Shown one piece after another: positions 25,407-54,005 of a stretch of DNA of 64,000 nt (the first letter of the stretch is position 1; every line of letters begins with the position of its first letter). The notes beneath the pieces were generated by a model. It had not been told where the DNA came from. It saw only the letters and a program-made list of their open reading frames with translations, and ran no database searches. The stretch covers positions 1 through 64,000 of the IMG/VR virus record IMGVR_UViG_3300021963_000035. One strand, written 5' to 3'. Source of the DNA: a virus. The position numbers and the translations under genes were made by a program.

Positions 25407-25413
25407 TATTTAT
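25407..25413 (-). promoter_or_regulatory. late promoter motif ATAAATA
   Basis: ATAAATACAAGATG on the minus strand, overlapping the upstream stop codon. Confidence 0.55.
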
Positions 25414-31400: not shown

Positions 31401-34400
31401 GTATGGAGCAGAAACAACAATAATAGATCCGTTTATATTAGAAGATACTGCATAACCAAGTCTGTCACCAGTGTTTAATGTTTCAACACCGATATCACTA
31501 ATCGTTGAAATATTTGATATATCAACTGATTGATATAATTCTAAAATATCTCCGCTGTCTATTTTATAGATATAAACTTTACCTGTATTCGTTTTAGATG
31601 AATCTTCTGGTTCAAATCCCGGTGATCCGACTACCAAAGTCGAACCGTCTTGACTATAAGCTACAGAATAACCGAATTGATCGTAAGGATCTACAGAAAA
31701 TTCTTTAAACAAATCATCAGTTTTTAATCTCCAGATGTCACTAGTGCCATCATTATAAAATTGATAAACATTACCGCTATAATTATTTGCGCCAGGTGCA
31801 CCGACTGCTAGGTATGTAACATCTCCTAACTTTGTAGACGATAAACTAAATCCAAAACTTTCATACGCTGCCGGTCTTGGAGAAACATAAGTGTCTTTCT
31901 GGGTCCATTGATCATTTTCCCATTTATAAAAAGTGATGACACCTTGTTTAATATATCCCGGATCAATACCTCCGCTATCGGCTAATATGTAATCTGTCAA
32001 TTGCCATTGGCTAGAATTTAAAGTTATAGAACTTCCGTCGCCGTTAATATTCTCAGTGGCTTTCCACAGTTTTCCATTATATACAACTACTTGACCGGTT
32101 AGGTAAGTAGCTGATGGACTGAACGTGCCTCTATAAGCAGAATTAACTCCGCCTGCATCATAAGAACTTACAATCAACCATTGTTCATCATTAGTAACAT
32201 GAAGATTTGATCCGTACTTGTTAGTTAATTCCGATAAGAACTCGTTAGGTGGGATTAATATCTGCGAACTCTTTAGTCCGTCAGTATCTGGTTTATAAAC
32301 AACAACAGCTGAATTTCCATATAAGGAAGCAATCGCTTGTTTTCTTTCTGGTACATAGAATACACTAGTTCCTGCATAAAGAGGAGAAGTTGTACCAAAT
32401 TCAAGCACTTTATTATAGGTGTAAACAGAACTTTGTTTTTGTAATACTTCCCAATTTCCTTCTTCGTCATCATCTATAAAAATAGTATCGCCGACTTTTA
32501 ATCTTGCTATTGAATTATAATCAGTATCATTCGAAGTTGCAAAACGGCATTCAACAAATCTACCTATATCGATAGCTGAACTATCTTCTGGCAATATCGG
32601 TGTTGATGAAGTACCTGCAATTACAAAAGAGAATCTATCAACTGATTTTACTTTATAAAATCCAGTTAAGTTTGTAATACTGGTTAATCCTACGTATTCG
32701 TCTACAGACAGATCATGAGGAAAATTTAATACAACAGTAACGTCATTGGTTATATCATCTTTAGTTACAGAATTTAGATCAAATGAAGTTCTTGTATATC
32801 TTAGAATACTCCATTGTATATCTTCTGTGTCAAATGTTACCCAAACATGATCTCCGTATTTGACTTCACTTATATTCAAGTCAGGTATATTATCTCTAGA
32901 TGATATTGCCCATTGTACCTGATCTACTGCAACATACCCTGCGGTATGAGAAGGAAGTTCGTATTTTTTCTGAGGATTAACATCTGTACTAAACGGAACT
33001 AGTGATATTGAATAAGAATTATTATCAACTCTTATATACTGATCACTTACATCCTGAGAAGGAACATTATTTGTTAACAGTATTGGTTGAGGATTTAATC
33101 TAAATTTTCCAGAATTAAGATAAAACTCAACTTCGTTAAATTGATCTACTCCGCCGAATGTTCCTAGTCTAAATGCCCATTCTTCTTTTAATTGAATACT
33201 ATCAAGTTTTCCATTGCTTAACTTATCAAAGACCTTGGTAATAGAATTAGGAGTTCCTTTTTCTTTTATAAAGCCTTGATACAATTTAAACTGACTGATA
33301 TCATTTTGTGTAAGATTATCAAGATAATCTCTCTTTTGATATCCAATTGCATGTCTTGCTAGGTCTCGCTGGCTTGTGCCAACGCCTTCGGCATCAAGAT
33401 CATAATAATCTTCAAATTGATTAATCTTATAATCAAAGTTTGCTACTAATCCTTTTTCAGGAGTATAATCTAACTTAGTCCACTTTGTTTCGTCGAAAGA
33501 TACTGAACCTACTTGCTTTATTTGGCTGGTCCAATAAAACTCTCTATACTTGACGATGTCTCCTAACTTATAGTCTGTATACTCTTGCCATTTCTTAATA
33601 TTAACATTATCAAACAAGAATCCTGGGCTAGTATAATCTCCATCCCAATCAGTTGTTCTATAACCTATAACTTTCAATCTATCTTGTCTATATCCAGATG
33701 TCTTATCGTACAGAACATCGTTAAAGACTGTCCTGTCGTCAAAAATAACGACGTGCTCTTTTAGCACTAAATTTAAAGTTATAAAATATATCCCGTCAGA
33801 TGTGTCAACTACATCGACAGTCAGAGTCTGATAATCTCTAATAACATTTATATTAGACACTGGTAGTAATGTACCGTCACTCTTTAAAACAGAATAATCG
33901 TAAAAACTATCTAATAAAGATTCGGATACACCTACTCCAAATTTAAATACAAACTTTTTAGCATTAGGACTTAAACTTAATAAAGATCCCTCTGGCCAAT
34001 TATGCTTGGTCCAGAACATAAATTCTTTAACGCTGGTAAACCAATCATTTACTGTTGATAACTCGTAGTTGAATTCATCAAACTGTATGCCTATGCTCTT
34101 AAGATATTGTTCGTATCCAAATATAAAATCAATTACTTCTTGTACAGTGCCTAATACTGTCGAATATGGCAACACGCTAAGTTGTGAAAAATCAAATGTA
34201 TTACGCTTTAATGCTTCTACAGCCCCTTCTTGTGGTAAAGAAGGAATTTGCTTATAATATTCAGATTCGAAACTTGCACCGGCAGTGTGACTCGATATAA
34301 CTCTATAATACTGATTATTATATTTGACTATCTCACCCAAAGCATAATATTTGTTTTCAGTCCAAGTAACAAATGAGGAGGTGATTCCGCCAACGCTGAT

Positions 34401-37400
34401 TAATGGATCGCTTTGATTTGATATGGCTTGGTAATAATTAAAATAAGGTCGAACTTTGTCATATCCGTTTATCTTCCAACCTGCTGCGGTTTTTTCTATT
34501 AAAACTGCGCTATAAGATATGGAAGAGAACGGTGATCCTACATTAAAAATTATCTTAAAGTTTTCCTTAGGAACAAATACACTCCTACTAGTTGACTTAG
34601 GATTTTTACTATCTAAGATGTATTGTTGCTGAGATTCATCTACAAACCCAGAAATTTTGTTTGATAGTTTTACATCAATGCTGTTAAATTTGTTTTTTAT
34701 TTCTAGGTAATTCTGAGTTTTCGATTTTGAATAATCTATCAAATAATTTAATAAGCCTGCTGTTTGATTAGAATCAATATCAGGATAGACTATATCTTCG
34801 ATCTTAACAAATTCTTGAGTAGGTTGGTAGATCGGTTGGCCGATTATATTTTTAGATATTCTAAATGTATCTAACGATTTTGTAATAAAATCAAACGGTC
34901 TTAATAAACATAATGTTGATATTACTACAAAAGGATATTCGGAACTTTTTCTCCAGGCATTTTCTACAGGAGCAATATCGCCAAACTTGTACTCTCCTTT
35001 AGCAAGGACTAAACTAAATTCTTGGGCTAGATTGGATTCTAATGGAGATTGTAGATCTCCGTTTTCATTAACTGGAAGATGTTGTAACAGCGTAGGTCTC
35101 TTATATCTATCGTACTCGCCTGCTCTCGGACCTTGTCGTATAATACCGTCTTTTAAATCTTCCCATAATAATAAATTTCCGCTAGTATATGGGGCTGGTC
35201 CGTATTCCTCTTCCCACCATGTTGGTTTTTCACTAAACCCTAACATTTCCCAAGGACATACGTGAGGTCTATCAGTATCATAGAACCAATCATAGATACC
35301 TCTCCAATAACCTTTAAGATTAATTGTTTGGGTAGATTCTGTCATGTTAGAATAATTGTATGTGAACGAATTACCGTTCTCAAAATAATCATTCTTAATA
35401 TAATCAATGTTTGCTGCCGAAACCCATTTTAAGAAATAGGACGCCATTACAGAATTTGTCTCATCTTTGTTGAATAAAGAATTTCCGTAAAAACCTCCTA
35501 GGTTTTCGTCAATGTTAAAAACTGTTTCCTCATACGATGTTTTGATATTGTTGTAAATTCGTTTTTCTAATTCCAACAATAACTCATCTCTAAAATCATC
35601 ATAAGCAATTGTTACACTACCATCGTGACCTTGAATTACTTTTGTAGGAGTAACATAAGTGTCGTCTACATAAATTCTAGGAGTGAATTTTTTATATAAA
35701 CCTAACTTAGTCGGTGTAGGCGGAATAAAATTAAATGCAGTAGTTGAATACTGACGGATTTCTATAATGTCGCCTTCATTTAAATCTATTGTAACATTTA
35801 TAAATCCAAACGTAGAATCAAAAGTATATTCGCGATCTACTAACAATTGTACACCATTGTGATATACGTAAATGGCGTTTCTAGAAAGGGTCGAAAGATC
35901 AAATTTTTCTGTTAAGGCAAATACTTTTATCTGTCTTTCTACTGTATATTTGAATCCGAAATATGCTCCGCTACCTATCATGTCAGAATCGGCAAACGGA
36001 GAGTCAGCTGTTTTAACTTTGTTTAATTCTTTAAAAATTTGATCAACAAAATCTACTGGATTTAGATCATAATTCAGTTTAACTGCAAGAGTTAAAAAAT
36101 TATTTCTAAATTCAGAATATGATCTCCTAGCAAAATCTAAAGATTTAATAATATTTGTATTCTTATCACAGATCAATGTAATAGCGATCGGAGACAAACT
36201 AGCATGTTTGAGGAATCGTCGACCGTAATGTTGGTAATCTGATATATCTCTAAGATTAGAAGTTCCTGGAAAATTCCCACTAAACTCTTCGGTTATCTCT
36301 ACCATCGATCTTAAATGATCTAACGCTTGCCCAAAGGTAAATGAAGTTAGATCCTGATTTAATGGATTATTTTCTAATGTTGGAGGAATTTCATAATACC
36401 CTTGGTCAGGTACTGCATCAGTCCAAATTTTAATTGTAATAACTTCGCCGGCACTAAATGTATCTTCAAAAGTAAAGTCTCTATTATTAAGACCAGATCT
36501 AACATATCGGCCATTGTAAATATTTCCGTTTCTATAAAAAACGATTTTTTCTCTAGTAACCTGTTCCCAGAAAATAGTGTTAAATCTAATAGTATTTGTG
36601 CTAATACTTAATACAATACTATCAATAACTGGTTGTAGATATAGCGTATCAGTTTCAATCCAGGTATTTGAATATGTTACATTAGTTGAATCAACATTGG
36701 TTCTTAAAAATCCGCTGCTGATTTTCTTTTCTACTATTGATGTTGTTTGGTACTGGAACATATCACTGTCCCAAGTAGCATCAAATAATATATCACCTAT
36801 GTTATCAATATTAAGATAACTCAGGCTAAATCCTAATTCAACGTCAGATACACTTGATCCGACCTTATATGTTAATACTGTAGTTCCTTTGAACTTGCTT
36901 GACGGATAATAGGTTTCATTAGAAAAACTATAACCATCGCTGTCATATACATCAAATAAAGGAGCTTGATTTACTGCTGTCTTTAGTTGGCTTAAAGTCC
37001 AGGTAGTACCATCAAAATGGTACATTCTTCCGCCGTTGTCTTGTCCAAACTTTACAAGAACACAATCGCCAGATACACTGACTGCGTCCTCTTCTTCAAC
37101 TAGATGAATCTGTTTTCCTGTGATTCCGCTGTACTGAGTCTTTATAAAAGTTACTCTATAGATTTTATTTTTTACTAAACTATCAGTATCAGCTGTGAAT
37201 AAAACTCTGGCGCCTTCAAATAAATCAACGCCTTCAATGTTATAACCTGCAGAACCTTCTATAATACTAAATGCGTCAGATGTAAACACATCGATAAGGT
37301 CAATATCTTTCTTAGCGAAGCTACCGTGATTGAATAATTGAAGATCTGGTTTAAATTCTATAATTGGTCTTTTAGCCCTAGCCGACTCTGGTAAATCAAA

Positions 37401-38768
37401 AGTTGTGCCATTAAAAGTATGAGAGTATTCTAGAACACTCTTATGAAACCATCTATTGTATCTACTCCAAGGATTACTATCTACACTAGATTTATTAATA
37501 GTAATATAATCTTTGTCTAGAGGATATGAAGTAGCATCATCAAAAGGAACAGTGTCAAATCCTTCGTTATCAAAAACTATTTCGCCAGTTGAAGCTATTA
37601 ATGCTGGCGTCGATATTGTGTCAAATCTAATTAATCGAATTCCAACGCCGACACCTTCAACTAACCAAGTGCCTTTAGAATACTCTTCAGGAAATACTTG
37701 TCCAGAAAACTGGACTACTAATCCATTAGTAAATGTTACATTATTTGAACTCTTATAAGTTAACTTTTTTAATATTTCTTTTTCTACATCAAGTGTTGTG
37801 TTTTCATTAATATTCTTAACTAAGAATCTTCCTGTTCTTCCCGGTTCTTGATCGCTAACATAAAAAAGAATATCAGGAGATCCGTAAGGAACTGTGAAAG
37901 TAATCTTTCCAACTTCGATTCCGTTGTTAGTTACACCGGCACTATAATAATTTCTTTTATCTAAAGTAGTTTGTTCCCAATCCTGACTGTTTGAGTCAAT
38001 TGAGCTACCGTCACCGTTAATGTTAGTTTTTGCTCTCCATAACTTGCCAGCAAATTCTACAACATCTCCAACACGATAATACATGTTAGGATTAAACTCC
38101 CCAGACACATATTCTAAACCATTTGATGTTCTAATAGAAAATTTGTTTCTAGGAGAATTTACATCAAAGATATATGTCTGTCCTCTGTATAGTACAACAT
38201 CAGGATTTGCTGTTAATCCGTCCGGATTAAAAACCCAAGCAGGTAAATCTCCAACTGTTTGTGCTCTAACTTTATATTCGGATGTTATATTCTGGGCTTG
38301 ACCTTCTACTGTGACCACAGGAGGTCCATTGACTGCCCAATAGTATTCTCTAAAGTTTGAAAACTTATCCCAGTCAATCGGAGGATTCCAGGAATAGCTT
38401 TCTGTTTGTGTGATTAAATTATCTTTCTCGATAGAGTTACCAAAAAAGTTTAGTTGATTTTTAAAGTCTAGATAATCGTAAAATGTCGAAACATTATCGT
38501 CATCGTCAACAGTTACTATGCCTGGCTCTAATTGATATCTACTTCTAAGAGTATTATCAGTATCTAGGTAAACATCAGTGCTATTATAGGTCTTACCGTA
38601 TCTTCTGCCTACAAAACCAGATAATTTTTCTAACACTCCCGGTTGTACAAGAGGATCAAGTGTTCCTCCTAAAAACTTAGAGTTGTTACCTGTCTGAAAG
38701 ATCTTTGGTAGGAGATCAACTGTCCTTCTGATCTTAATACCACTTTGTGTAAAAACTTTTTCGGTCAT
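25410..38768 (-). CDS. giant (4452 aa) baseplate wedge-like structural protein with CBM5/12-like and FG-GAP beta-propeller repeats
   Basis: Directly follows gp6 (the gp7 position). Contains YLKEVKPYRTKIRE, GSGYxxPPxVxIxGGGGSGATA repeats, FG(Y/F)S...LxVG(A/S)P repeats and Y-x-x-G-x-x-V-x-Y modules. Confidence 0.75.
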   Translation of the reverse strand: MTEKVFTQSGIKIRRTVDLLPKIFQTGNNSKFLGGTLDPLVQPGVLEKLSGFVGRRYGKTYNSTDVYLDTDNTLRSRYQLEPGIVTVDDDDNVSTFYDYLDFKNQLNFFGNSIEKDNLITQTESYSWNPPIDWDKFSNFREYYWAVNGPPVVTVEGQAQNITSEYKVRAQTVGDLPAWVFNPDGLTANPDVVLYRGQTYIFDVNSPRNKFSIRTSNGLEYVSGEFNPNMYYRVGDVVEFAGKLWRAKTNINGDGSSIDSNSQDWEQTTLDKRNYYSAGVTNNGIEVGKITFTVPYGSPDILFYVSDQEPGRTGRFLVKNINENTTLDVEKEILKKLTYKSSNNVTFTNGLVVQFSGQVFPEEYSKGTWLVEGVGVGIRLIRFDTISTPALIASTGEIVFDNEGFDTVPFDDATSYPLDKDYITINKSSVDSNPWSRYNRWFHKSVLEYSHTFNGTTFDLPESARAKRPIIEFKPDLQLFNHGSFAKKDIDLIDVFTSDAFSIIEGSAGYNIEGVDLFEGARVLFTADTDSLVKNKIYRVTFIKTQYSGITGKQIHLVEEEDAVSVSGDCVLVKFGQDNGGRMYHFDGTTWTLSQLKTAVNQAPLFDVYDSDGYSFSNETYYPSSKFKGTTVLTYKVGSSVSDVELGFSLSYLNIDNIGDILFDATWDSDMFQYQTTSIVEKKISSGFLRTNVDSTNVTYSNTWIETDTLYLQPVIDSIVLSISTNTIRFNTIFWEQVTREKIVFYRNGNIYNGRYVRSGLNNRDFTFEDTFSAGEVITIKIWTDAVPDQGYYEIPPTLENNPLNQDLTSFTFGQALDHLRSMVEITEEFSGNFPGTSNLRDISDYQHYGRRFLKHASLSPIAITLICDKNTNIIKSLDFARRSYSEFRNNFLTLAVKLNYDLNPVDFVDQIFKELNKVKTADSPFADSDMIGSGAYFGFKYTVERQIKVFALTEKFDLSTLSRNAIYVYHNGVQLLVDREYTFDSTFGFINVTIDLNEGDIIEIRQYSTTAFNFIPPTPTKLGLYKKFTPRIYVDDTYVTPTKVIQGHDGSVTIAYDDFRDELLLELEKRIYNNIKTSYEETVFNIDENLGGFYGNSLFNKDETNSVMASYFLKWVSAANIDYIKNDYFENGNSFTYNYSNMTESTQTINLKGYWRGIYDWFYDTDRPHVCPWEMLGFSEKPTWWEEEYGPAPYTSGNLLLWEDLKDGIIRQGPRAGEYDRYKRPTLLQHLPVNENGDLQSPLESNLAQEFSLVLAKGEYKFGDIAPVENAWRKSSEYPFVVISTLCLLRPFDFITKSLDTFRISKNIIGQPIYQPTQEFVKIEDIVYPDIDSNQTAGLLNYLIDYSKSKTQNYLEIKNKFNSIDVKLSNKISGFVDESQQQYILDSKNPKSTSRSVFVPKENFKIIFNVGSPFSSISYSAVLIEKTAAGWKINGYDKVRPYFNYYQAISNQSDPLISVGGITSSFVTWTENKYYALGEIVKYNNQYYRVISSHTAGASFESEYYKQIPSLPQEGAVEALKRNTFDFSQLSVLPYSTVLGTVQEVIDFIFGYEQYLKSIGIQFDEFNYELSTVNDWFTSVKEFMFWTKHNWPEGSLLSLSPNAKKFVFKFGVGVSESLLDSFYDYSVLKSDGTLLPVSNINVIRDYQTLTVDVVDTSDGIYFITLNLVLKEHVVIFDDRTVFNDVLYDKTSGYRQDRLKVIGYRTTDWDGDYTSPGFLFDNVNIKKWQEYTDYKLGDIVKYREFYWTSQIKQVGSVSFDETKWTKLDYTPEKGLVANFDYKINQFEDYYDLDAEGVGTSQRDLARHAIGYQKRDYLDNLTQNDISQFKLYQGFIKEKGTPNSITKVFDKLSNGKLDSIQLKEEWAFRLGTFGGVDQFNEVEFYLNSGKFRLNPQPILLTNNVPSQDVSDQYIRVDNNSYSISLVPFSTDVNPQKKYELPSHTAGYVAVDQVQWAISSRDNIPDLNISEVKYGDHVWVTFDTEDIQWSILRYTRTSFDLNSVTKDDITNDVTVVLNFPHDLSVDEYVGLTSITNLTGFYKVKSVDRFSFVIAGTSSTPILPEDSSAIDIGRFVECRFATSNDTDYNSIARLKVGDTIFIDDDEEGNWEVLQKQSSVYTYNKVLEFGTTSPLYAGTSVFYVPERKQAIASLYGNSAVVVYKPDTDGLKSSQILIPPNEFLSELTNKYGSNLHVTNDEQWLIVSSYDAGGVNSAYRGTFSPSATYLTGQVVVYNGKLWKATENINGDGSSITLNSSQWQLTDYILADSGGIDPGYIKQGVITFYKWENDQWTQKDTYVSPRPAAYESFGFSLSSTKLGDVTYLAVGAPGANNYSGNVYQFYNDGTSDIWRLKTDDLFKEFSVDPYDQFGYSVAYSQDGSTLVVGSPGFEPEDSSKTNTGKVYIYKIDSGDILELYQSVDISNISTISDIGVETLNTGDRLGYAVSSNINGSIIVVSAPYGDFNLTDSGLVYVLKNSATSPNYKLTNKINGLDLEAFEKFGSNLILTPSGNRLVVGAANSTSRLKTRFSDNTVFDNGTTTFSQARGSSGRVYVFEKQDTEYLLAEDLDADFVPNESFGYSISATENFVLVGSPTYNDEPNVLTTAGQIRLYTKQQDKVVWTNLAKQQLQSNISLIKSLSVYDPSKNVKIADIDIVDHYKGKFLGIVEEEIRFKNPYDPAFYSRGNEEQVVVDSNQAWYGDQIGMLWWNSDTAKWLNYEQGTTAYRTGHWNQQVVGSSVDIYEWIETELLPSEWSLVADTNEGLAVGISGQPLYPDDSTYNSKEFYDTNTGLINKTLYYYWVKNTVVVPDIKNRSISAASVAAFINSPSLAGIPYIGVIGINEYVAFNFDKVLTKDQILFNIQWYKENKNINLIHNEYQLLTEGVADSIPAETLERKWIDSLVGYDTMGNKVPDPSLSAKQKYGLSFRPRQSMFIDRSTAFKIFLDNVNEILTTKPFADNLNFERLGSVDEIPNPLLNLYDITVETYLDLTQLTVPKVRTASLRGNIIDGKLESLDILDSGFGYRIPPPVTISGTGVGAKVELTIDNSGRITGYTIINKGKKYDSITLTVRGFSVLVTNDETYNNYWTVYQYEDRTSQYYRSLTQGYDTTKYWSYVDWWKTGFSSSTRIDHEILGLYLDDTLTELENNSLVKVSEYGSGGWAVLQVVDVTATTLNKKYELIGRQNGTIQISSTLYDTSINQVGYDNVGTYDFAAYDKQPLAETRNIIEAIKTDILIDDLQYKWNQIFFNSIHYVFSEQLYVDWAFKTSFLQALHSVGDLVQKTHYQNDNLESFEEYLKEVKPYRTKIREYTSCYDSLDQTRSIISDFDLPPTFNKSEGQVLPVKSTNEITSTYPWKFWADNNSYGISEINVYYAGSGYINPPQVLITGGGGSGATAKAYIANGKVSGVVVLTSGSGYITSPTVELVGGNTDLSLTATAYATIGRGVVRSMNLGIKFDRISKQGSFTKFTQEETLTANGRTAVFDLKYPPTRDRSKFTIYIDNNLILSNLYTVTLYTKEIDGNSVLKGRVKFSYVPVNGASIKISYEKNDSILDSVDRINKFYSPDAGMIGNNTEQLMTGIDFGGVIIQGSSFTATGGWDALPWFSDSWDSVSANSDYYVIADGSTTSVELPYVPAIGQAINVYIKRGDFSTLPDKTGKFTRIDDPYYDVYDGSTVQPNGKTSAPVTAVMNTFVGNGVTKSVNLPYNLHTQAGDILIFRSSDSDGTVVISDLNVLDTNLSGGTLANTNSLYTTATGKTVDEILVYGETFISPSQVPAPEENIPGQVLDSVSIKVFTSVNIGAPNVLSRVYFGNGINRKFEIGQSILEFNAVAVYLDKIKQVLTLDKYDTTSDAWVNLDVGTIEFLNPPSFGIPIEIVSFGPGGYGILDYVEFVGDGNTRFFVTNARYADTSKIVATVNGIESSAIFINSATVLNNTNNTAVEFPGAPNVGDQIKILVMGGLNNSLIDKTPIRINQQTIIYDGSTRTYSLDNFVSLEKASAAGNMIVEVNGLYIDSGDMLSVKYNGSNNSFVIGTDPAVASGSILLSQIKVYINNVLAEFIRQWLFDGQTNTLTVLSSELTINDEIIVEIVRDVKYTISNNNIVFDSSLSLNPNDQILVTWFSEYSTLSLVKDRFVGSKTSLPIRRQSISNSFIWIYKNGHRLTPEVDYSYNKLYSIAELRVETIDTDIITVLIFGNNVYKDPVAYELYKDMLNHNHFTNYSINSVELAKELKYYDTVIEVNDASSLPVPNVADRVPGTIFVNSERIEYYTKTGNILGQLRRGVYGSAIAESHEIGSKVVDVSIYQSLPYREYQAREDFVSDGSTLLIGPLSFTPAQGTRSSWYRNTIPSTYGPCDQLEVFIQGKRLVKDSYKQYSENNGLESPAADIDVEADFSVNGKTPYIRLTKAVPAGVRITVIKRTGQIFYDQGLTTASSGTTLLDNTTPVANFLRNKTTKLPE

Positions 38769-48806: not shown

Positions 48807-49817
48807 ATGAGTTTATTCAAAAAAGCAGCCTGTTTTACTGATATACATTTTGGTTTAAAAGGCGGTAGCCGAACACACAACAACGATTGTGAAGAATTTG
48901 TTAAATGGTTTTGCGACACTGCAAAAGCTGAAGGCTGCGATACTGTCATATTCCTAGGTGATTGGCATCATAATAGGTCGGCAACAGATGTAAGCACAAT
49001 GAATTACACTGTTAGTAATCTCAAACGACTAAATGATAACTTTGATCAAGTGTTTGTTATCACTGGCAACCACGATCAATTCTACAAAGATAAACGAGAA
49101 ATCAACAGTTTAGAGTTCGGCAGACTACTTCCAAACATAACACTAGTAGATAAAACTATCACTTCTGGTGATGTTACCATTATGCCCTGGTTAGTCGGAG
49201 ACGAATGGAAAGATGTTCCAAAGATTAAAAGTCAATACATCTTTGGACACTTAGAATTACCTTCATTTTACATGAATGCAATGGTGCAGATGCCCGATCA
49301 CGGACAATTACAAAGAGATCACTTTGTAAATCAAGAGTACGTGTTCACTGGACATTTCCATAAGCGTCAAGAAGCTAACAATATTGTCTACATAGGCAAT
49401 GCTTTTCCACACAACTACGCTGATAGTGGCGACGACGACCGAGGCATGATGATTTTAGAATGGGGTAAGAAGCCCGTTTATAAAAATTGGCCAGGACAGC
49501 CTGTATATCGAACATACAAGTTAAGTCAAATTATGGAAAATCCAGATGCATTGTTACATGAAAAAATGCATTGTAGGGTTAGCATCGACATACAGATTTC
49601 TTTTGAAGAAGCTAATCTTATTAAAGAAACGTTTATTCCCCAATACAATTTAAGAGAACTGATGTTAATACCTGAAAAAGAGCAAATTGCCGACAACTTT
49701 GAAATGGGGGATATTACATTTGAAAGTGTTGACAGTATTGTTATAGGTCAACTAAATGCTATCGAATCAGAATCATTCGATAAGAAACTGCTGCTGGACA
49801 TATATCAAAATCTATGA
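48807..49817 (+). CDS. gp47: recombination endonuclease subunit (gp47 / Mre11 / SbcD-like)
   Basis: Metallophosphoesterase motifs TDIHFG, LGDWHH, GNHD, GHLE and GHFH. Confidence 0.92.
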   Translation: MSLFKKAACFTDIHFGLKGGSRTHNNDCEEFVKWFCDTAKAEGCDTVIFLGDWHHNRSATDVSTMNYTVSNLKRLNDNFDQVFVITGNHDQFYKDKREINSLEFGRLLPNITLVDKTITSGDVTIMPWLVGDEWKDVPKIKSQYIFGHLELPSFYMNAMVQMPDHGQLQRDHFVNQEYVFTGHFHKRQEANNIVYIGNAFPHNYADSGDDDRGMMILEWGKKPVYKNWPGQPVYRTYKLSQIMENPDALLHEKMHCRVSIDIQISFEEANLIKETFIPQYNLRELMLIPEKEQIADNFEMGDITFESVDSIVIGQLNAIESESFDKKLLLDIYQNL

Positions 49818-51595
49818 TTAAAATAAAAAATTTAACTGTAAAAAACTTTATGAGTGTGGGTAATCAAACCCAGGCTGTAGATTTTGACAAAGGATCGTTA
49901 ACACTAGTATTAGGTGAGAATCTAGATCTAGGCGGAGACGGCACTGGTGCTAGGAACGGAACCGGTAAGACTACTATAGTAAATGCGTTGAGTTATGCGA
50001 TTTACGGCAATGCCCTAACAAATATTAAAAAAGATAATCTGATCAACAAAATCAACAATAAAAATATGTTGGTCACTGTTAGCTTTGATAAAAACGGTGT
50101 AGAGTATCACATTGAACGCGGTCGCAAACCTAACTTATTAAAACTTAGCATTAACGGTACAGAGTTACAGCCCATAGAACAAGACGAAAGCCAGGGCGAT
50201 TCTAGAGAAACACAAAAAGAAATAGAATCAGTATTCGGTATGACTCACGATATGTTCAAGCATCTCGTGGCTCTTAACACTTATACAGAACCGTTCCTGT
50301 CAATGAAAGCAGGTGATCAACGTGCAATCATTGAACAACTGCTGGGCATTACTATACTATCTGAAAAAGCAGATGCTTTAAAAGAAGGTATCAAGTTAAA
50401 CAAAGAATTAATTACTCAAGAAAATACAAAAATTGAAACTATTAAAGCGTCTAATGCTAGAATACAGCAAAGTATTGATGCATTAGAGCGTAAACAAACA
50501 TTGTGGTTACAGACCAAAGATGATACTGTAAGCAAATTAGAAAAAGACATCAAAGCATTGCAGCTTATAGACATTGATCTTGAAATTAACAATCAGAAGT
50601 TGTTAACTGATTGGAACAAGAACAAGAAAGAAATCGATAACCTAAACAGCCTATTGGCAAAACAGATAACAGCATTAGAAAAAGAACAACGGATCTTAGA
50701 CAAATTAAACAAGGAATTAGAATCTCTTGCAGAGCACAAGTGCCATAGCTGTGGGCAAGACCTTCACGACAGCAAACATCAGGAAATGATGGATGCTAAA
50801 CAGGCGCAGATACAAGAAAGTCTCAATAATGTAACTGCACATCAAGAAGAAATTACTGTGTTCAAAGAAGCATTAACTTTGCTAGGAGAACTAGGACCTT
50901 GTCCTAATGTAGTATATGACAGTTTAGAACAGGCTCTTAATCATAGAAACACATTAAGCAACTTAGAAAAAAATCTTGAAACTAAGAAAACAGAAAAAGA
51001 TCCATATCAGGATCAGATCGATGAATTAAAAAACACCGCTGTGCAGAACATTAACTGGAATAACATCAATGAACTAACAAAGATTAAAGATCATCAAGAG
51101 TTTTTATTAAAATTATTAACTAACAAAGATAGTTTTATTAGGAAACGCATCATCGATCAGAATCTAAGCTTCTTAAATGCTAGACTATCGTTCTATCTAG
51201 ATAGAATTGGACTTCCTCACCAGGTTACTTTCCAGAATGACCTATCAGTGTTGATTACACAGCTAGGACAAGATTTAGACTTTGACAATCTAAGTCGCGG
51301 AGAGCGCAATAGATTGATTCTAAGTCTAAGTTGGGCTTTCCGCGATGTGTGGGAAAATCTATATCAGAACATTAATTTGTTGTTTATTGATGAACTAGTT
51401 GATTCCGGAATGGATTCTAGTGGTGTTGAGAGTGCAATAGCTGTATTAAAGAAGATGACTAGAGAGCGTAATAAGAACGTTTTCCTGATCAGTCACCGGG
51501 ATGATCTAACTAATCGGGTCAATCAGGTACTACGTGTTATCAAAGAAAACGGCTTTACATCATATGCAACGGATGTGGATATTGTAGACAAATGA
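49814..51595 (+). CDS. gp46: recombination ATPase subunit (gp46 / Rad50 / SbcC-like)
   Basis: KNFMSVG, Walker A RNGTGKTT, zinc hook CHSC, signature LSRGE, Walker B LFIDE and H-loop ISHR. Confidence 0.92.
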   Translation: MIKIKNLTVKNFMSVGNQTQAVDFDKGSLTLVLGENLDLGGDGTGARNGTGKTTIVNALSYAIYGNALTNIKKDNLINKINNKNMLVTVSFDKNGVEYHIERGRKPNLLKLSINGTELQPIEQDESQGDSRETQKEIESVFGMTHDMFKHLVALNTYTEPFLSMKAGDQRAIIEQLLGITILSEKADALKEGIKLNKELITQENTKIETIKASNARIQQSIDALERKQTLWLQTKDDTVSKLEKDIKALQLIDIDLEINNQKLLTDWNKNKKEIDNLNSLLAKQITALEKEQRILDKLNKELESLAEHKCHSCGQDLHDSKHQEMMDAKQAQIQESLNNVTAHQEEITVFKEALTLLGELGPCPNVVYDSLEQALNHRNTLSNLEKNLETKKTEKDPYQDQIDELKNTAVQNINWNNINELTKIKDHQEFLLKLLTNKDSFIRKRIIDQNLSFLNARLSFYLDRIGLPHQVTFQNDLSVLITQLGQDLDFDNLSRGERNRLILSLSWAFRDVWENLYQNINLLFIDELVDSGMDSSGVESAIAVLKKMTRERNKNVFLISHRDDLTNRVNQVLRVIKENGFTSYATDVDIVDK

Positions 51596-51831
51596 GCTAC
51601 GAAGCACATGATCGATTGATCAAGGCCTTTCAGGAATACTTTAAGGCCAAAATGAAATTTGACAAAGAAAATTCAGACAAAGGCGGCATAGAGGCAAGAT
51701 TTTGGCTATCAGAAATACGTAACGAGGCAAGCGACTTAAGAATAGAAATTCAAAAAGACAGAAAAGAACGCAGAAAGGCTAGATTAGGCAAAAACGGCAG
51801 GCCAAGAAAGGACGGCACGATTAGAGATTAG
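51592..51831 (+). CDS. small basic DNA-binding protein (Hc1-like helix + AT-hook-like GRPRK)
   Basis: 79 aa. KF...GIEARFWLSEIRNEASDLRIEIQ resembles the histone-H1-like Hc1 pattern, and the C-terminus carries KNGRPRK. Confidence 0.5.
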   Translation: MSYEAHDRLIKAFQEYFKAKMKFDKENSDKGGIEARFWLSEIRNEASDLRIEIQKDRKERRKARLGKNGRPRKDGTIRD

Positions 51832-51845
51832 AACTAAAATAGTAA

Positions 51846-52280
51846 ATGCAGTGGACATATCAGAATACACTTGTGGAAGAATTGCCGGAAGATTGTATAG
51901 GATTCGTCTATCTGATCACCAATCTAATCACTGGACGCAAATACATAGGCAAAAAACTGGCACAGTTTAAACGCACAAAACCACCACTCAAAGGCAAAAA
52001 ACTTAAAAGACGCAGCACTGTAGAAAGCGATTGGCGCGAATATTGGGGCTCATCTGATAAGTTACAAGCAGATGTACAAACACTAGGTCCAGAAAAATTC
52101 ACCAGAGAAATACTTTATTACTGCAAAAGCAAGGCTGAAATGAGCTATCTTGAGGCTAGAGAACAGTTTGAACGTAAGGTTTTGGAAACAGACGAGTACT
52201 ATAATGGCATTATTAATGTCAGAGTAGGCGGTTCAAACATACTTAGGCAACGTCTAGAAGAACATAAAAAGGCAAAATAA
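51846..52280 (+). CDS. minimal GIY-YIG endonuclease (Seg-like catalytic domain only)
   Basis: GFVYLITNLITGRKYIGKK (GIY-YIG), YWGSS, FTREIL, catalytic-type LEAREQ and YYN. Only 144 aa. Confidence 0.85.
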   Translation: MQWTYQNTLVEELPEDCIGFVYLITNLITGRKYIGKKLAQFKRTKPPLKGKKLKRRSTVESDWREYWGSSDKLQADVQTLGPEKFTREILYYCKSKAEMSYLEAREQFERKVLETDEYYNGIINVRVGGSNILRQRLEEHKKAK

Positions 52281-52640
52281 CGCGGTTTAGGGCTTGCGCA
52301 GGCCAATGTCGTGCGCCTATGATAAGGGGTTTAACTACGCCCGGACGGAAATCTCTCGCCGCAAAGAGTACTCAACCACTATCCTTAACAGGACGTTAAT
52401 GGCAAAGACCTTGCTGTATGGTTGTTTGGAGAGCGAAATAGGCAAAAAGAGGGGAGAAAAACCCCACGTCTACATAGATGATAGCAGATTTATGTAGGCC
52501 GCCGTTGTAATAAGACGGAGCTCGAGGTACCGGACAACCGCCTCTGTAACGCTCTACTGCTGTGTGACATTGTGCAACTCGGATAATGTTATCTTTGCCC
52601 GGCCTGGGCAAAGTGTGACTGAACAATCTGGATAATATTA
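52281..52640 (+). ncRNA. putative large structured non-coding RNA directly downstream of GIY-YIG gene
   Basis: GC-rich non-coding island with at least 10 helices, including a three-way junction closed by CAACCA (52373-78) / TGGTTG (52419-24) and a nested GGAGC...GAGG...CGG-ACAA-CCG-CCTC...GCTCT stem (52517-52555). The strand is inferred from G-U-compatible pairs and co-orientation. Confidence 0.6.
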
Positions 52641-52641
52641 A

Positions 52642-52737
52642 TAGTGCTTCGCACTAATTATTCTCTACTATTAAAAAGAAGATAAATGTGTTTGAGCGAA
52701 GCGAAAAACACAGATGAGCGTAGCTCATCTTCGAAGA
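52642..52737. repeat. cluster of GC-GNA-GC mini-hairpins / palindromes
   Basis: TAGTGC-TTC-GCACTA (52642-56; GCGAAGC on the minus strand), GCGAAGC inside TGTGTTT/AAACACA (52687-52712), AGATGAGC-GTA-GCTCATCT (52712-30) and TCTTCGAAGA (52728-37). Confidence 0.75.
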
Positions 52738-52743
52738 ATGAAA

Positions 52744-52750
52744 ATAAATA
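52744..52750 (+). promoter_or_regulatory. late promoter motif ATAAATA
   Basis: Lies 25 nt upstream of the ATG at 52776, with an AGGA SD. Confidence 0.55.
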
Positions 52751-52775
52751 ATATATCTGTTTTAGGAATAATAAC

Positions 52776-54005
52776 ATGCGAATAACTGATGTCCTCGTCG
52801 AAACGAATACAAATGCCAAGTCACGATTAGATGAAAAACCAATGGGGATCCTAAGTAAATTAGGAAACAAAGCCCTTTCTAAGTTGGGTAGTGGTCGTGC
52901 TGCTGGTCGCCTAAGCACTGGTGATCTAGCTAACAAAATACACAAAGAATATGATACCTATCTAGGTAAAACAGGACAAGAGCCTAGCAAAGAATCTGTA
53001 TTGGCTTTCCTACAATTCAAGGGATATCCTACGCAAGGCGCAGAAAAGATCCTAAACAGTCCCGAAGCACAAGGTCAAGCACCTACTGGACCACTAGGCA
53101 AGGGTAGTCCTGGTGCTGCTCGTCCAGGTGCTGGTAAAGCCAGTGCTGCTCCTGGCGCAGATAAGATTGAACCTAAAATGGGAGATGAGCCGGCAGGTGA
53201 TGCAACAGCTCCAACTGATGGTAAGACAGAACCAACAATGGGGGCAGAAAAACCTAATTTTAGTACAGGTCCTCAACCTACAATGAAAGGTGCAGACGGT
53301 AAAGCATTACCAACAGGTATTCCTAGTACAACAGATCCACTAGCAGCTATACGTAAAAATGCAGGACTACCTCCTGCTGCTGATAAACCTGCTGCACCGG
53401 CAGCAGATGTTCCAGGTGCTCCACCAGGAGATGACAAGAAAGCTGCTGCTAAATCACGTATCGATCAGATGAAAAAAGATAAAGCAGCAGGTACTGGATT
53501 CGGAGGCTTTGTTAAAGGTGCTAAGGCCAAAGGTCTAGTAACGGCAGGTATGTATGAAGCAACAGCTATTCCTAGCTCTGTGATAGACAAAGCTCTGTTA
53601 AAGGCTGCACAAGATGCAGAACGCATGGGTATTGGTCAAGCATTAGGAGATCCAGAAGACGATCAACAAGGTGCTCCAGCTGGTCCTATGAGCAAAGGCG
53701 GTGCAGGTGGTGGACAACAAGGCGGATTCATGGCCGGGGTCAAACAAGGAATGGGTGGCGGCGCAGCAGGTGATGAAGATCCTGCTAAGGTTAAAGGTAG
53801 TTTGAATATAAATCAGCTGTCGTCTCTGATGCCAGGTGTTGACCCTAGACAACTACAACAGGCTGTAGCACGTATTAAAGCTGGTCAAGAGCCAAGTCGT
53901 ATGCATATGCAGACATTGGCACAGGCATTTACTGCTATTGTGCAAGCTGATCCACAGACTACACAACAGATCATGATGCTACTCAAGCGTGTAAGTGCTG
54001 CTTAA
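52776..54005 (+). CDS. low-complexity (Pro/Ala/Gly-rich) probable internal virion protein
   Basis: 409 aa. N-terminal MRITDVLVE...RLDE with L-x-E sites, long disordered central region, late promoter upstream. Confidence 0.6.
   Translation: MRITDVLVETNTNAKSRLDEKPMGILSKLGNKALSKLGSGRAAGRLSTGDLANKIHKEYDTYLGKTGQEPSKESVLAFLQFKGYPTQGAEKILNSPEAQGQAPTGPLGKGSPGAARPGAGKASAAPGADKIEPKMGDEPAGDATAPTDGKTEPTMGAEKPNFSTGPQPTMKGADGKALPTGIPSTTDPLAAIRKNAGLPPAADKPAAPAADVPGAPPGDDKKAAAKSRIDQMKKDKAAGTGFGGFVKGAKAKGLVTAGMYEATAIPSSVIDKALLKAAQDAERMGIGQALGDPEDDQQGAPAGPMSKGGAGGGQQGGFMAGVKQGMGGGAAGDEDPAKVKGSLNINQLSSLMPGVDPRQLQQAVARIKAGQEPSRMHMQTLAQAFTAIVQADPQTTQQIMMLLKRVSAA

What the first reader, a model, noticed from the sequence alone, without database searches (positions are those of the whole stretch)
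51846..52640. Catalytic-domain-only GIY-YIG nuclease followed immediately by a large structured putative ncRNA: candidate RNA-associated nuclease system
Seen in sequence: the 144-aa GIY-YIG ORF ends soon after the YYN motif and has no NUMOD/HTH/zinc-finger DNA-binding tail. Starting one base after its stop is the only long intergenic stretch in 64 kb (~495 nt), visibly more GC-rich than the surrounding genome and densely paired. Helices: GCGCA/TGCGC (52296-52316); CTCT/AGAG (52353-68); a three-way junction CAACCA/TGGTTG (52373-52424) enclosing TCCT-TAAC-AGGA and GGCAA/TTGCT; GGGG/CCCC (52451-65); CTACATAGA/TTTATGTAG (52470-97); CCGT/ACGG (52502-18); a nested GGAGC-GAGG-CGG(ACAA)CCG-CCTC-GCTCT stem (52517-55); CTTTGCCC/GGGCAAAG (52593-52613). 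Established: Seg/I-TevI-type GIY-YIG homing enzymes get specificity from an appended DNA-binding domain, and compact nucleases paired with an adjacent structured RNA (IscB/TnpB with omega RNA, HEARO) are RNA-guided. Inference: this may be an undescribed nuclease-RNA ribonucleoprotein, with the RNA acting as guide, scaffold or antitoxin, or a nickase acting on an adjacent replication/packaging element. I do not recognise the RNA as a known family.
Basis: partly seen in the sequence, partly recalled or inferred. Interest (0 to 1): 0.85.

Follow-up and report, generated by a model that had tools for sequence, protein, structure and literature searches.

The report
Known orphan phage RNA behind nuclease gene
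The gene-free stretch behind a small nuclease gene of this uncultured T4-like phage encodes a real, knotted non-coding RNA of about 450 bases; its first third is the catalogued orphan motif Polynucleobacter-1, and nothing found here shows that it guides the nuclease.

Summary
A 144-aa GIY-YIG protein with only a catalytic domain (51846-52280) is followed by the only long gene-free gap of the window. That gap encodes a + strand structured RNA running from about 52291 to 52733.

The RNA is not unknown. Bases 52291-52427 match Rfam RF01718 (Polynucleobacter-1, Weinberg 2010) at 88 bits against a threshold of 37. That paper already placed the motif downstream of the gene family of P-SSM2 PSSM2_218, which I show is this GIY-YIG family.

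The remaining 300 nt are not in the Rfam model, though the 2010 supplementary alignment already marks tail hairpins and a pseudoknot:
- a tail domain with two covarying pseudoknots;
- a module with the same 7-nt box twice (GGAUAAU);
- a GNRA hairpin and a terminator.

In an RNA-first search, 103 of 103 contigs with enough upstream DNA carry the nuclease gene upstream. All of them share one gene order, so this is not independent evidence of a functional link. The same protein family occurs widely without any such RNA. No guide-like segment exists, and no cis partner for the boxes was found.

My reading is a free-standing phage RNA made at the end of the gp47-gp46-GIY operon, presenting twin boxes to an unknown trans partner. 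An RNA-guided nuclease is unlikely (about 5%). This scan has already met the same RNA in over 100 other genomes.

The parts
51846..52280 (+). 144-aa GIY-YIG nuclease gene, catalytic domain only (SegE type; same family as cyanophage P-SSM2 PSSM2_218, T4-GC 213)
   Evidence: Pfam PF19835 at 6e-36. It is 43% identical to PSSM2_218, E 6e-26. Model pLDDT is 93 and the best fold match is the I-TevI catalytic domain. F20, V21, Y22, Y33, G35, Y66, S69, R87, E103 and N120 are invariant in 38 diverse homologues. They are also invariant in 99 unique clade members, except one V21I.
52291..52427 (+). 5' domain, the Rfam RF01718 Polynucleobacter-1 motif. Helices: P1 52296-300/52312-16; P2 about 52326-42; P3 52353-56/52365-68; three-way junction P4 52373-78/52419-24 with arms 52382-84/52391-93 and 52399-403/52413-17
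   Evidence: cmscan gives 88 bits against a gathering score of 37, over model positions 1-141. P1, P4 and P4b are 100% paired, with 3, 4 and 4 covarying pairs.
52441..52561 (+). Tail domain. Helices: T1 52441-43/52501-03; T2 52451-54/52462-65; T3 52470-79/52488-97; T5 52517-21/52551-55; T4 52524-28/52540-44. Pseudoknot PKa is 52504-08 with 52534-38. Pseudoknot PKb is the T3 loop 52483-87 with 52557-61
   Evidence: T3 is 96.8% paired with 9 covarying pairs. PKb is 100% paired (AGCAG/CUGCU versus AGCGU/ACGCU in 10 against 18 sequences). PKa is 99.3% paired with 3 covarying pairs. The close pair L017/L031 differs in the knot by a compensated double change.
52562..52656 (+). Twin-box module. Unit 1 is GUGUGAC..CAACUC plus box GGAUAAU (52581-87). 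Hairpin H6 is 52593-52613. Unit 2 is GUGUGAC..CAAUCU plus box GGAUAAU (52630-36). Hairpin H7 is 52642-56, with an invariant GCUUCGC
   Evidence: Both boxes are identical in 43 of 44 unique relatives while the box differs between phages: GGAUAAU, GCAUAAU, AGAUAAU, ACAUGAU, ACAUGAA, AGAUGAU. H6 is 98.7% paired and H7 90% paired with 4 covarying pairs. The module is also kept where the 5' domain is of another type.
52657..52686 (+). Variable, unpaired A/U-rich linker
   Evidence: Length and sequence vary freely in A1. Nucleotide identity to relatives is 27-72%.
52687..52712 (+). Hairpin H8, with a GNRA-type loop in relatives (GAA triloop here) and tandem G.A pairs
   Evidence: In A1 the outer stem covaries: GUGUU/AACAC, GCGUU/AACGC, GCUUU/AAAGC, GUUC/GAAC. 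Loops are GCAA, GAAA, GUAA, GGAA. In L041 the tandem G.A is replaced by Watson-Crick pairs. This was read by eye, because MAFFT columns are shifted by the window's 1-nt deletion (helices 15-16).
52713..52733 (+). Terminator hairpin H9 (52713-29). The U run is weak here and is UUUUU in most relatives. It marks the 3' end of the RNA
   Evidence: 98.5% paired with 6 covarying pairs. T runs in relatives are visible in A1. The consensus scan calls this hairpin a terminator only on the minus strand.
52743..52775 (+). AAUAAAUA, resembling the T4 late promoter (52743-50), and AGGA ribosome-binding site (52764-67) of the next gene. Not part of the RNA
   Evidence: Sequence. TAAATA is conserved at this place in A1. 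The comparison with the T4 late-promoter consensus TATAAATA is from my own knowledge.

Best explanation
The gap encodes a full-length member of the extended Polynucleobacter-1 ('twin-box') RNA family of uncultured freshwater T4-like phages.

Shown:
- It is a + strand RNA of about 450 nt.
- It has a 5' three-way-junction domain (Rfam RF01718), a doubly pseudoknotted tail, a module that shows one 7-nt box twice around a hairpin, a GNRA hairpin and a terminator.

Inferred:
- It is transcribed as the last part of the gp47-gp46-p79-GIY operon. No terminator and no room for a promoter lies between the GIY stop codon and helix P1.
- It is probably then trimmed to a stable RNA.
- It acts in trans. The ornate 5' two thirds give a rigid, nuclease-resistant body. 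The twin boxes, single-stranded and kept identical, are the working surface.
- That surface is read by a two-site or dimeric partner, a protein or another RNA, encoded elsewhere in the phage or in the host.
- The RNA would then work as a sponge, decoy or scaffold, or as a regulator with two seeds.
- The GIY-YIG enzyme is an ordinary, strongly conserved nuclease gene. It shares the operon and its history with the RNA but does not need it for targeting.
For: Identity:
- RF01718 at 88 bits.
- The 2010 description, including the upstream gene family.
- PSSM2_218 is a homologue of the window's protein.

RNA and strand:
- Covariation in 13 helices and 2 pseudoknots.
- G.U to A.C ratio of 117 to 21.
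- z-score -2.41 on + against -1.36 on -.
- GNRA loops in H8.

Co-transcription:
- The RNA starts 1-15 nt after the stop codon in 55 relatives.
- In some relatives the ORF runs 3 codons further into the same sequence.
- No + strand promoter-like site lies in 52100-52290.

Not a leader of the next gene: in L017 and L031 the RNA is followed directly by a convergent gene, and elsewhere the next gene varies.

Trans partner:
- The boxes are identical in 43 of 44 relatives, yet differ between close relatives (L017 AGAUAAU, L031 GGAUAAU).
- Box position 2 (G or C) has no complementary column anywhere from 300 nt upstream of the GIY start to 520 nt past the stop.
- The box is not a recurrent motif of the genome (18 copies, as chance predicts).

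The twin-box and terminator modules are the conserved core: they persist where the 5' domain is replaced by other folds.

Independence from the nuclease: the protein family occurs without the RNA. L021 keeps an intact GIY gene but has lost the RF01718 domain and tail.
Against: - No transcript data.
- No partner for the boxes was found.
- The record is only 42% complete and the host is unknown.
- Within this clade the RNA never occurs without the GIY gene (103 of 103).
- GIY clades follow RNA type beyond gp46 divergence (regression term 0.135, 0 of 500 permutations). A functional tie to the nuclease is therefore not excluded.
- The 3' module has few G.U pairs (8 against 2 A.C), so its strand is less firmly fixed.
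- In the window the terminator's U run is weak.
Confidence: 0.6

Rival explanations
1. Nuclease-RNA ribonucleoprotein. The RNA binds the domain-less GIY-YIG enzyme and gives it a target, a scaffold or a brake, with the twin boxes or the linker as the specificity element.
For: - The enzyme has no DNA-binding domain.
- The RNA starts at its stop codon.
- 103 of 103 co-occurrence in an RNA-first search.
- GIY clades track RNA type beyond gp46 divergence.
- The catalytic residues are invariant.
Against: - The short form is the norm for this family.
- The family occurs with no RNA behind it in at least 8 cultured phages and several metagenomic contigs.
- All co-occurrence lies in one gene order.
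- L021 has an intact GIY gene without the RF01718 domain.
- There is no 15-20 nt hypervariable segment. Seven-nt boxes are too short to guide.
- In the copy in the Polynucleobacter chromosome and its relatives, the 130 nt printed upstream of the RNA carry stop codons in all three frames (read from the alignment).
Confidence: 0.05
2. Cis-acting 3' untranslated element. The structure only protects or regulates the gp47-gp46-GIY messenger (block to exonucleases, terminator efficiency, insulation of early from late transcription) and has no function in trans.
For: - It sits at the 3' end of an operon, ends in a terminator and is followed by a late-promoter-like site.
- It lies at the border between the replication/recombination genes and the baseplate genes in all relatives.
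Against: - About 450 nt with two pseudoknots, a three-way junction and invariant unpaired boxes is far more than protection or termination needs.
- Related phages with the same gene order use quite different 5' domains yet keep the twin-box module.
- A copy of the motif lies in a bacterial chromosome.
Confidence: 0.15
3. Decoy of a sequence-specific endoribonuclease. The two repeat units are cut or bound at the boxes by a host defence nuclease, or a phage one, as the repeats of type III antitoxin RNAs (ToxI) are. Box changes would follow the enzyme met in each host.
For: - Two direct repeat units with a period of about 50 nt, each ending in the same box, flank a hairpin.
- The boxes change fast and together.
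- No cis partner exists.
Against: - There are only two units.
- No ToxN/AbiQ-like gene lies nearby, and PADLOC gives only 'homing endonuclease' for the GIY protein.
- The conserved flanks and the large 5' body have no parallel in ToxI.
- L029 carries a single unit.
Confidence: 0.1
4. DNA-level element. The repeats, the A/T-rich tract and the GCGNAGC mini-hairpins of 52562-52735 form a replication origin or a nick or packaging site used by the neighbouring nuclease.
For: - Direct repeats, an A/T-rich linker and GC-GNA-GC hairpins on both strands (earlier first-reader notes).
- The 3' module has too few G.U pairs to fix the strand.
Against: - The helices covary as in RNA.
- H8 loops are GNRA tetraloops on the + strand only.
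- H6 tolerates U.G on +.
- The module is contiguous with, and knotted into, a + strand RNA: PKb ends at 52561, one base before unit 1.
- The repeat unit occurs nowhere else in 148 kb.
Confidence: 0.05

Closest known systems
Polynucleobacter-1 RNA motif (Rfam RF01718; Weinberg et al. 2010, Genome Biol 11:R31, PMC2864571)
   Same: Bases 52291-52427 match the whole 141-position model at 88 bits. The position matches too, downstream of the GOS11034 / PSSM2_218 gene family. The 3' hairpins and one pseudoknot are already marked in the authors' supplementary alignment. The copy in the Polynucleobacter chromosome also shows twin boxes (AGCGAAA after AACUC and AAUCU) in the printed flank.
   Different: The Rfam model and the paper cover only the first third. 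The second pseudoknot, the twin-box module and the GNRA hairpin plus terminator are not described. Nor are the identity of the upstream gene as a GIY-YIG nuclease or the home in T4-like phages: the authors found the motif in no purified phage. Function was and remains unknown.
Seg-type and I-TevI-type GIY-YIG homing endonucleases of T4
   Same: The catalytic domain is shared: Pfam SegE_GIY-YIG, I-TevI-like fold, and invariant Tyr, Tyr, Arg, Glu and Asn.
   Different: There is no DNA-binding tail. The gene order is fixed, dN is about a tenth of dS, and the gene is single-copy in nearly all phage records that carry it. These are not the marks of a selfish, sporadic homing gene. In size it is nearer to T4 endonuclease II (DenA, 136 aa; from my own knowledge, not tested).
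OMEGA systems (IscB/TnpB with omega RNA; HEARO RNA)
   Same: A small nuclease gene sits next to a large conserved structured RNA, and both RNA motifs come from the same 2010 survey paper.
   Different: The nuclease fold differs (GIY-YIG, not RuvC/HNH). Co-occurrence is not obligate, there is no guide segment and no sign of a mobile element.
Large orphan structured RNAs of phages and bacteria (GOLLD, ROOL, OLE)
   Same: Several hundred nucleotides, many helices and pseudoknots, phage-borne, function unknown.
   Different: No sequence or model match. The twin identical boxes have no described parallel in those RNAs (from my own knowledge).

Membership tests
Rfam RF01718 Polynucleobacter-1 RNA | Covariance-model score at or above the curated gathering score over the full model | tested here: met
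   88 bits against 37, model positions 1-141 of 141, E 5e-19. It is the single copy in the 148.6-kb record.
Rfam RF01718 Polynucleobacter-1 RNA | Consensus helices kept by compensatory changes | tested here: met
   P1, P4 and P4b are 100% paired, with 3, 4 and 4 covarying pairs in 28 relatives.
Rfam RF01718 Polynucleobacter-1 RNA | Lies downstream of a gene of the GOS11034 / P-SSM2 PSSM2_218 family | tested here: met
   The upstream protein is 43% identical to PSSM2_218 (E 6e-26), and both are PF19835.
Rfam RF01718 Polynucleobacter-1 RNA | Optional 3' tail with hairpins and a pseudoknot (authors' alignment) | tested here: met
   T2, T3, T4 and T5 plus PKb, and a further knot PKa.
GIY-YIG nuclease superfamily, SegE-type domain (PF19835) | Profile match above the cut-off and a GIY-YIG fold | tested here: met
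   123.8 bits against 25. Best fold match is the I-TevI catalytic domain, probability 0.99, TM 0.67 by target.
GIY-YIG nuclease superfamily, SegE-type domain (PF19835) | Catalytic Tyr (GIY), Tyr (YIG), Arg, Glu and Asn conserved | tested here: met
   Y22, Y33, R87, E103 and N120 are invariant in 38 diverse and 99 clade sequences. Their equivalence to I-TevI residues rests on the fold match and my recall, not on a residue-by-residue superposition.
Free-standing homing endonuclease (Seg / I-TevI kind) | Appended DNA-binding domain (NUMOD, zinc finger, helix-turn-helix) | tested here: not met
   The protein ends 21 residues after the domain and has no other Pfam or NCBIfam match.
Free-standing homing endonuclease (Seg / I-TevI kind) | Sporadic presence, variable insertion sites, relaxed selection | tested here: not met
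   The gene follows gp46 in 81 of 82 contigs and in all 80 loci of the first set. dN is 0.08-0.24 against dS of 0.8 or more. There is one place per record in 498 phage records.
RNA-guided nuclease systems (IscB/TnpB-omega RNA) | Protein family and RNA always occur together | tested here: not met
   There is no RNA behind homologues in 8 cultured phages and in L325 and L327-L329.
RNA-guided nuclease systems (IscB/TnpB-omega RNA) | Hypervariable guide of about 15-20 nt at one end of a conserved scaffold | tested here: not met
   The only unpaired variable parts are the 30-nt A/U-rich linker inside the RNA and two 7-nt boxes.
RNA-guided nuclease systems (IscB/TnpB-omega RNA) | Protein binds the RNA and cleaves targets that match it | not testable with these tools
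   Needs biochemistry.
Type III antitoxin RNA (ToxI kind) | Tandem direct repeats next to a ToxN/AbiQ-type endoribonuclease gene | tested here: not met
   There are only two units. The neighbours give no such PADLOC match.

The most novel reading that the evidence does not exclude
The domain-less GIY-YIG enzyme and the twin-box RNA work as one ribonucleoprotein in this phage clade. The RNA would tether, aim or restrain the nuclease, which would be the first RNA-dependent GIY-YIG enzyme. What keeps this open is the never-broken co-occurrence in the clade and the match between GIY clades and RNA types.
Probability: 0.05. Interest if true: 0.9.

Novelty: new member of a known kind. Interest (0 to 1): 0.4.

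Why it matters
Polynucleobacter-1 has been an orphan motif since 2010. Three findings turn a catalogue entry into a testable object:
- It is the head of a knotted RNA of about 450 nt carried by abundant freshwater T4-like phages.
- Its long-noted upstream gene is a GIY-YIG nuclease.
- Its conserved core is a pair of identical, fast-changing boxes.

The boxes name the exact residues to mutate and to use as bait. If their reader is a host or phage factor, this would be a new way for large phages to control or evade something by RNA.

For this window alone the gain is small. The RNA is a typical member of its family, and this scan has already described the same family on other DNA.

Tried and rejected
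1. Partner of the twin boxes in cis. Box position 2 (G in 33 and C in 10 unique relatives) has no complementary column from -300 of the GIY start to +520 after the stop.

2. Boxes as a genome-wide promoter or motif. GUGAC-N-GGAUAAU occurs only at these two places. The 7-mer occurs 18 times in 148.6 kb, as chance predicts. The spacing to GUGAC (10-12 nt) does not fit a sigma-70 promoter.

3. Trans target in the phage. One exact 12-nt antisense match to unit 2 lies inside a coding region at G000:70974-70985. It is absent from the orthologous site of a relative carrying the same box (L337, same contig as L031), so it is chance.

4. Phage tRNAs as readers. There is no tRNA in the record.

5. RegA as reader. 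No PF01818 match in the 42%-complete record. This is untestable here.

6. Recent transfer of a GIY-RNA cassette. L017 and L031 are similar upstream too. RNA type needs 2 changes on the GIY tree and 4 on the gp46 tree. This fits mostly vertical descent.

7. An embedded element at the 3' end of the GIY gene. Synonymous conservation is spread evenly along the gene.

A viral scan for the Polynucleobacter-type sequence found nothing. I therefore could not read the gene context of the chromosomal copy.

9. Sequence searches of solved structures found nothing.

10. Expression data.
Full report
**What is there.** The window is part of a 148.6-kb record of an uncultured T4-like phage. On the + strand lie these genes:
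- a gp47/Mre11-like gene (48807-49817);
- a gp46/Rad50-like gene (49814-51595);
- a small basic ORF (p79, 51592-51831);
- a 144-aa ORF (51846-52280).

After them come 495 nt without a credible ORF, and then a 409-aa low-complexity protein. The ORFs of the window tile it closely, and this is the only gap above about 110 nt. The gap has 45-47.5% G+C against 36.3% for the window.

**The protein.** It matches Pfam PF19835 (SegE_GIY-YIG) over the whole 123-position profile and nothing else.
- An AlphaFold model built on 38 diverse homologues has pLDDT 93. Its best solved-structure matches are the I-TevI catalytic domain.
- F20, V21, Y22, Y33, G35, Y66, S69, R87, E103 and N120 are invariant in those homologues. 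They are also invariant in 99 unique proteins of the clade, with one V21I.
- The 'catalytic domain only' form is the rule in this subfamily, not an oddity. Of 2415 representative clusters, the best 150 are mostly 130-170 aa.
- The gene is single-copy in 498 phage records, mostly cyanomyoviruses, where it is mislabelled 'NAD synthetase'.

**The RNA is a known family.** cmscan places Rfam RF01718, Polynucleobacter-1, at 52291-52427 on the + strand. The score is 88 bits against a gathering score of 37, over the full model. The supplementary text of Weinberg et al. 2010 (PMC2864571) makes three relevant statements:
- the motif lies mostly downstream of genes of family GOS11034, possibly homologous to PSSM2_218 of cyanophage P-SSM2;
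- its 3' half is not always found;
- it was seen in no purified phage.

PSSM2_218 is a 145-aa PF19835 protein, 43% identical to the window's protein. What the authors did not say is that the gene is a GIY-YIG nuclease. Their alignment also marks tail hairpins and one pseudoknot.

**The whole element.** Eighty viral contigs found through the protein all share the order gp47-gp46-(p79)-GIY. In about 55 of them the 470 nt after the stop codon are 70-86% identical to the window's. I tested a hand-built structure on 28 of them (A1).
- It has 88.8% of cells paired, against 76.6% in column shuffles and 34-45% with slid partners.
- 49 pairs have changes on both sides (0 of 500 shuffles).

Besides the Rfam domain, the structure holds:
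- a tail with helices T1-T5;
- pseudoknot PKb (loop 52483-87 with 52557-61);
- hairpin H6;
- hairpin H7 with an invariant GCUUCGC;
- hairpin H8 with GNRA loops and tandem G.A pairs;
- terminator hairpin H9, followed by UUUUU in most relatives.

G.U pairs outnumber A.C 117 to 21 in the first 270 nt. The + strand also folds better than its shuffles, z -2.41 against -1.36 for the other strand. After H9 come AAUAAAUA and a ribosome-binding site for the next gene. From my own knowledge, AAUAAAUA resembles the T4 late-promoter consensus.

**Twin boxes.** Two direct repeat units flank H6. Each reads GUGUGAC, a few bases, CAAYUC, then a 7-nt box.
- In the window both boxes read GGAUAAU (52581-87 and 52630-36).
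- Among relatives the box is GGAUAAU, GCAUAAU, AGAUAAU, ACAUGAU, ACAUGAA or AGAUGAU. The two copies are the same in 43 of 44 unique sequences.
- L017 and L031 have RNAs that are 97-100% identical. Their main differences in the conserved modules are both boxes (A to G) and a compensated double change in PKb.
- The copy in the Polynucleobacter chromosome, printed in the 2010 alignment, shows the same layout with AGCGAAA.
- I found no cis partner, no genome-wide use of the box, and no conserved antisense site in the phage.

I saw the repeat units and their matching dinucleotides, before I looked up earlier notes of this scan. Those notes describe the same 'twin boxes' in other genomes, and I adopt their name.

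**Linkage to the nuclease.** An RNA-first scan of viral contigs used a pattern from unit 2. It returned 114 new contigs.
- 103 have the GIY gene upstream on the same strand. The other 11 are too short on that side.
- All that reach far enough upstream also carry gp46 there (81 of 82). The linkage is therefore confounded with one conserved gene order.

Outside the clade the protein sits elsewhere, with no such RNA:
- Melnitz phages (68% identical), phiN3, S-SRM01, ACP17, P-HM1, P-SSM2, Moby and a Variovorax phage;
- metagenomic contigs, where it follows regA or other genes at a gap of about 20-35 nt, or about 180 nt in L328.

Inside the clade, contigs that lack RF01718 are not empty. They carry other GC-rich, conserved, covarying 5' domains at the same place, followed by the same twin-box and terminator modules. 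A 63%-identical relative has yet another version, with boxes CGAAUGAGUG.

Three natural variants show that the modules can be separated:
- L021 has an intact GIY gene but has lost the RF01718 domain and tail.
- L029 has one repeat unit.
- L003 lacks P3 to T2.

**Evolution of the pair.**
- The GIY gene is better conserved than its neighbours. It is 72-89% identical at the protein level, against 53-77% for gp46 and gp47.
- Its synonymous differences are below saturation: pS is 0.49-0.69 in loci of the RF01718 type and up to 0.80 in the others, against 0.71-0.90 for gp46 and gp47. The effect is spread evenly along the gene.
- At equal gp46 distance, GIY proteins differ by 0.12 when the RNA type is the same and by 0.26-0.28 when it differs (0 of 500 permutations).
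- On the GIY tree the RF01718 type needs 2 changes, one of them the loss in L021. On the gp46 tree it needs 4.

This shows that gene and RNA descend together. It does not show that they touch.

**Reading.** The best-supported account is a free-standing phage RNA, made as the last part of the gp47-gp46-p79-GIY transcript and ended by H9. Its conserved working part is the twin-box module, read by a partner in trans. The 5' domains are interchangeable bodies. I give this 0.6. The identity part alone is close to certain, and the mechanism part is inference.

The rivals:
- plain 3' UTR element, 0.15;
- endoribonuclease decoy, 0.10;
- nuclease-RNA particle, 0.05;
- DNA-level origin or nick site, 0.05.

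**Novelty and score.** The RNA in this window is an ordinary member of a catalogued family, in its published neighbourhood. The uncatalogued two thirds, the twin boxes and the nature of the upstream gene are real additions. However, this scan has already reported them from more than 100 other genomes. Interest 0.4.

Noticed in passing
window 51592-51831 (+): A 79-aa ORF with a Lys/Arg-rich tail lies between gp46 and the GIY gene. Its start overlaps the gp46 stop. It is kept in most relatives but evolves fast (32-63% identity) and has no family match. It is a possible nucleic-acid-binding protein, and so a candidate reader of the RNA.
   Followed up: partly
window 51846-52280 versus 48807-51595: The GIY gene has fewer synonymous differences (pS 0.49-0.69 in loci with the RF01718-type RNA) than gp46 and gp47 next to it (0.71-0.90, saturated). 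The effect is spread evenly over the gene and is unexplained. Possible causes are codon constraint, high expression, or a younger common ancestor of the GIY-RNA block.
   Followed up: partly
L021:4436-5260; L029:4445-4760; L003:4445-4800: Natural variants of the RNA. L021 has a 92-aa ORF in place of the RF01718 domain and tail. L029 has lost one repeat unit and H6, as if by recombination between the two GUGUGAC repeats. L003 lacks P3 to T2. They may be real variants or assembly errors.
   Followed up: partly
L059:4433-4945 and L058, L070, L071, L073, L075, L080: A second, uncatalogued 5' domain type of about 390 nt follows the GIY gene in these relatives. It is GC-rich and highly conserved, with visible compensatory changes. 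It is followed by twin boxes ACAUGAU or ACAUGAA.
   Followed up: partly
L327:1-475 and L329:1-475: Marine T4-like contigs carry a TnpB-like gene (OrfB_IS605, Cas12f-like domains) just upstream of the gp44/gp62/regA cluster. In these contigs the GIY homologue follows regA.
   Followed up: no
window 25410-38768 (-): A single ORF of 4452 aa, followed by further ORFs of 1135, 760 and 706 aa on the same strand. These are presumably giant fibre or structural proteins.
   Followed up: no
window 52776-54005 (+): The gene after the RNA encodes a 409-aa Ala/Gly/Pro-rich low-complexity protein with no family match. It is absent or replaced in many relatives.
   Followed up: partly
G000:C1:70974-70985 (outside the window): An exact 12-nt antisense match to repeat unit 2 (AUUAUCCAGAUU) lies inside a 121-aa ORF. 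It is not kept in a relative with the same box, so I read it as chance.
   Followed up: yes
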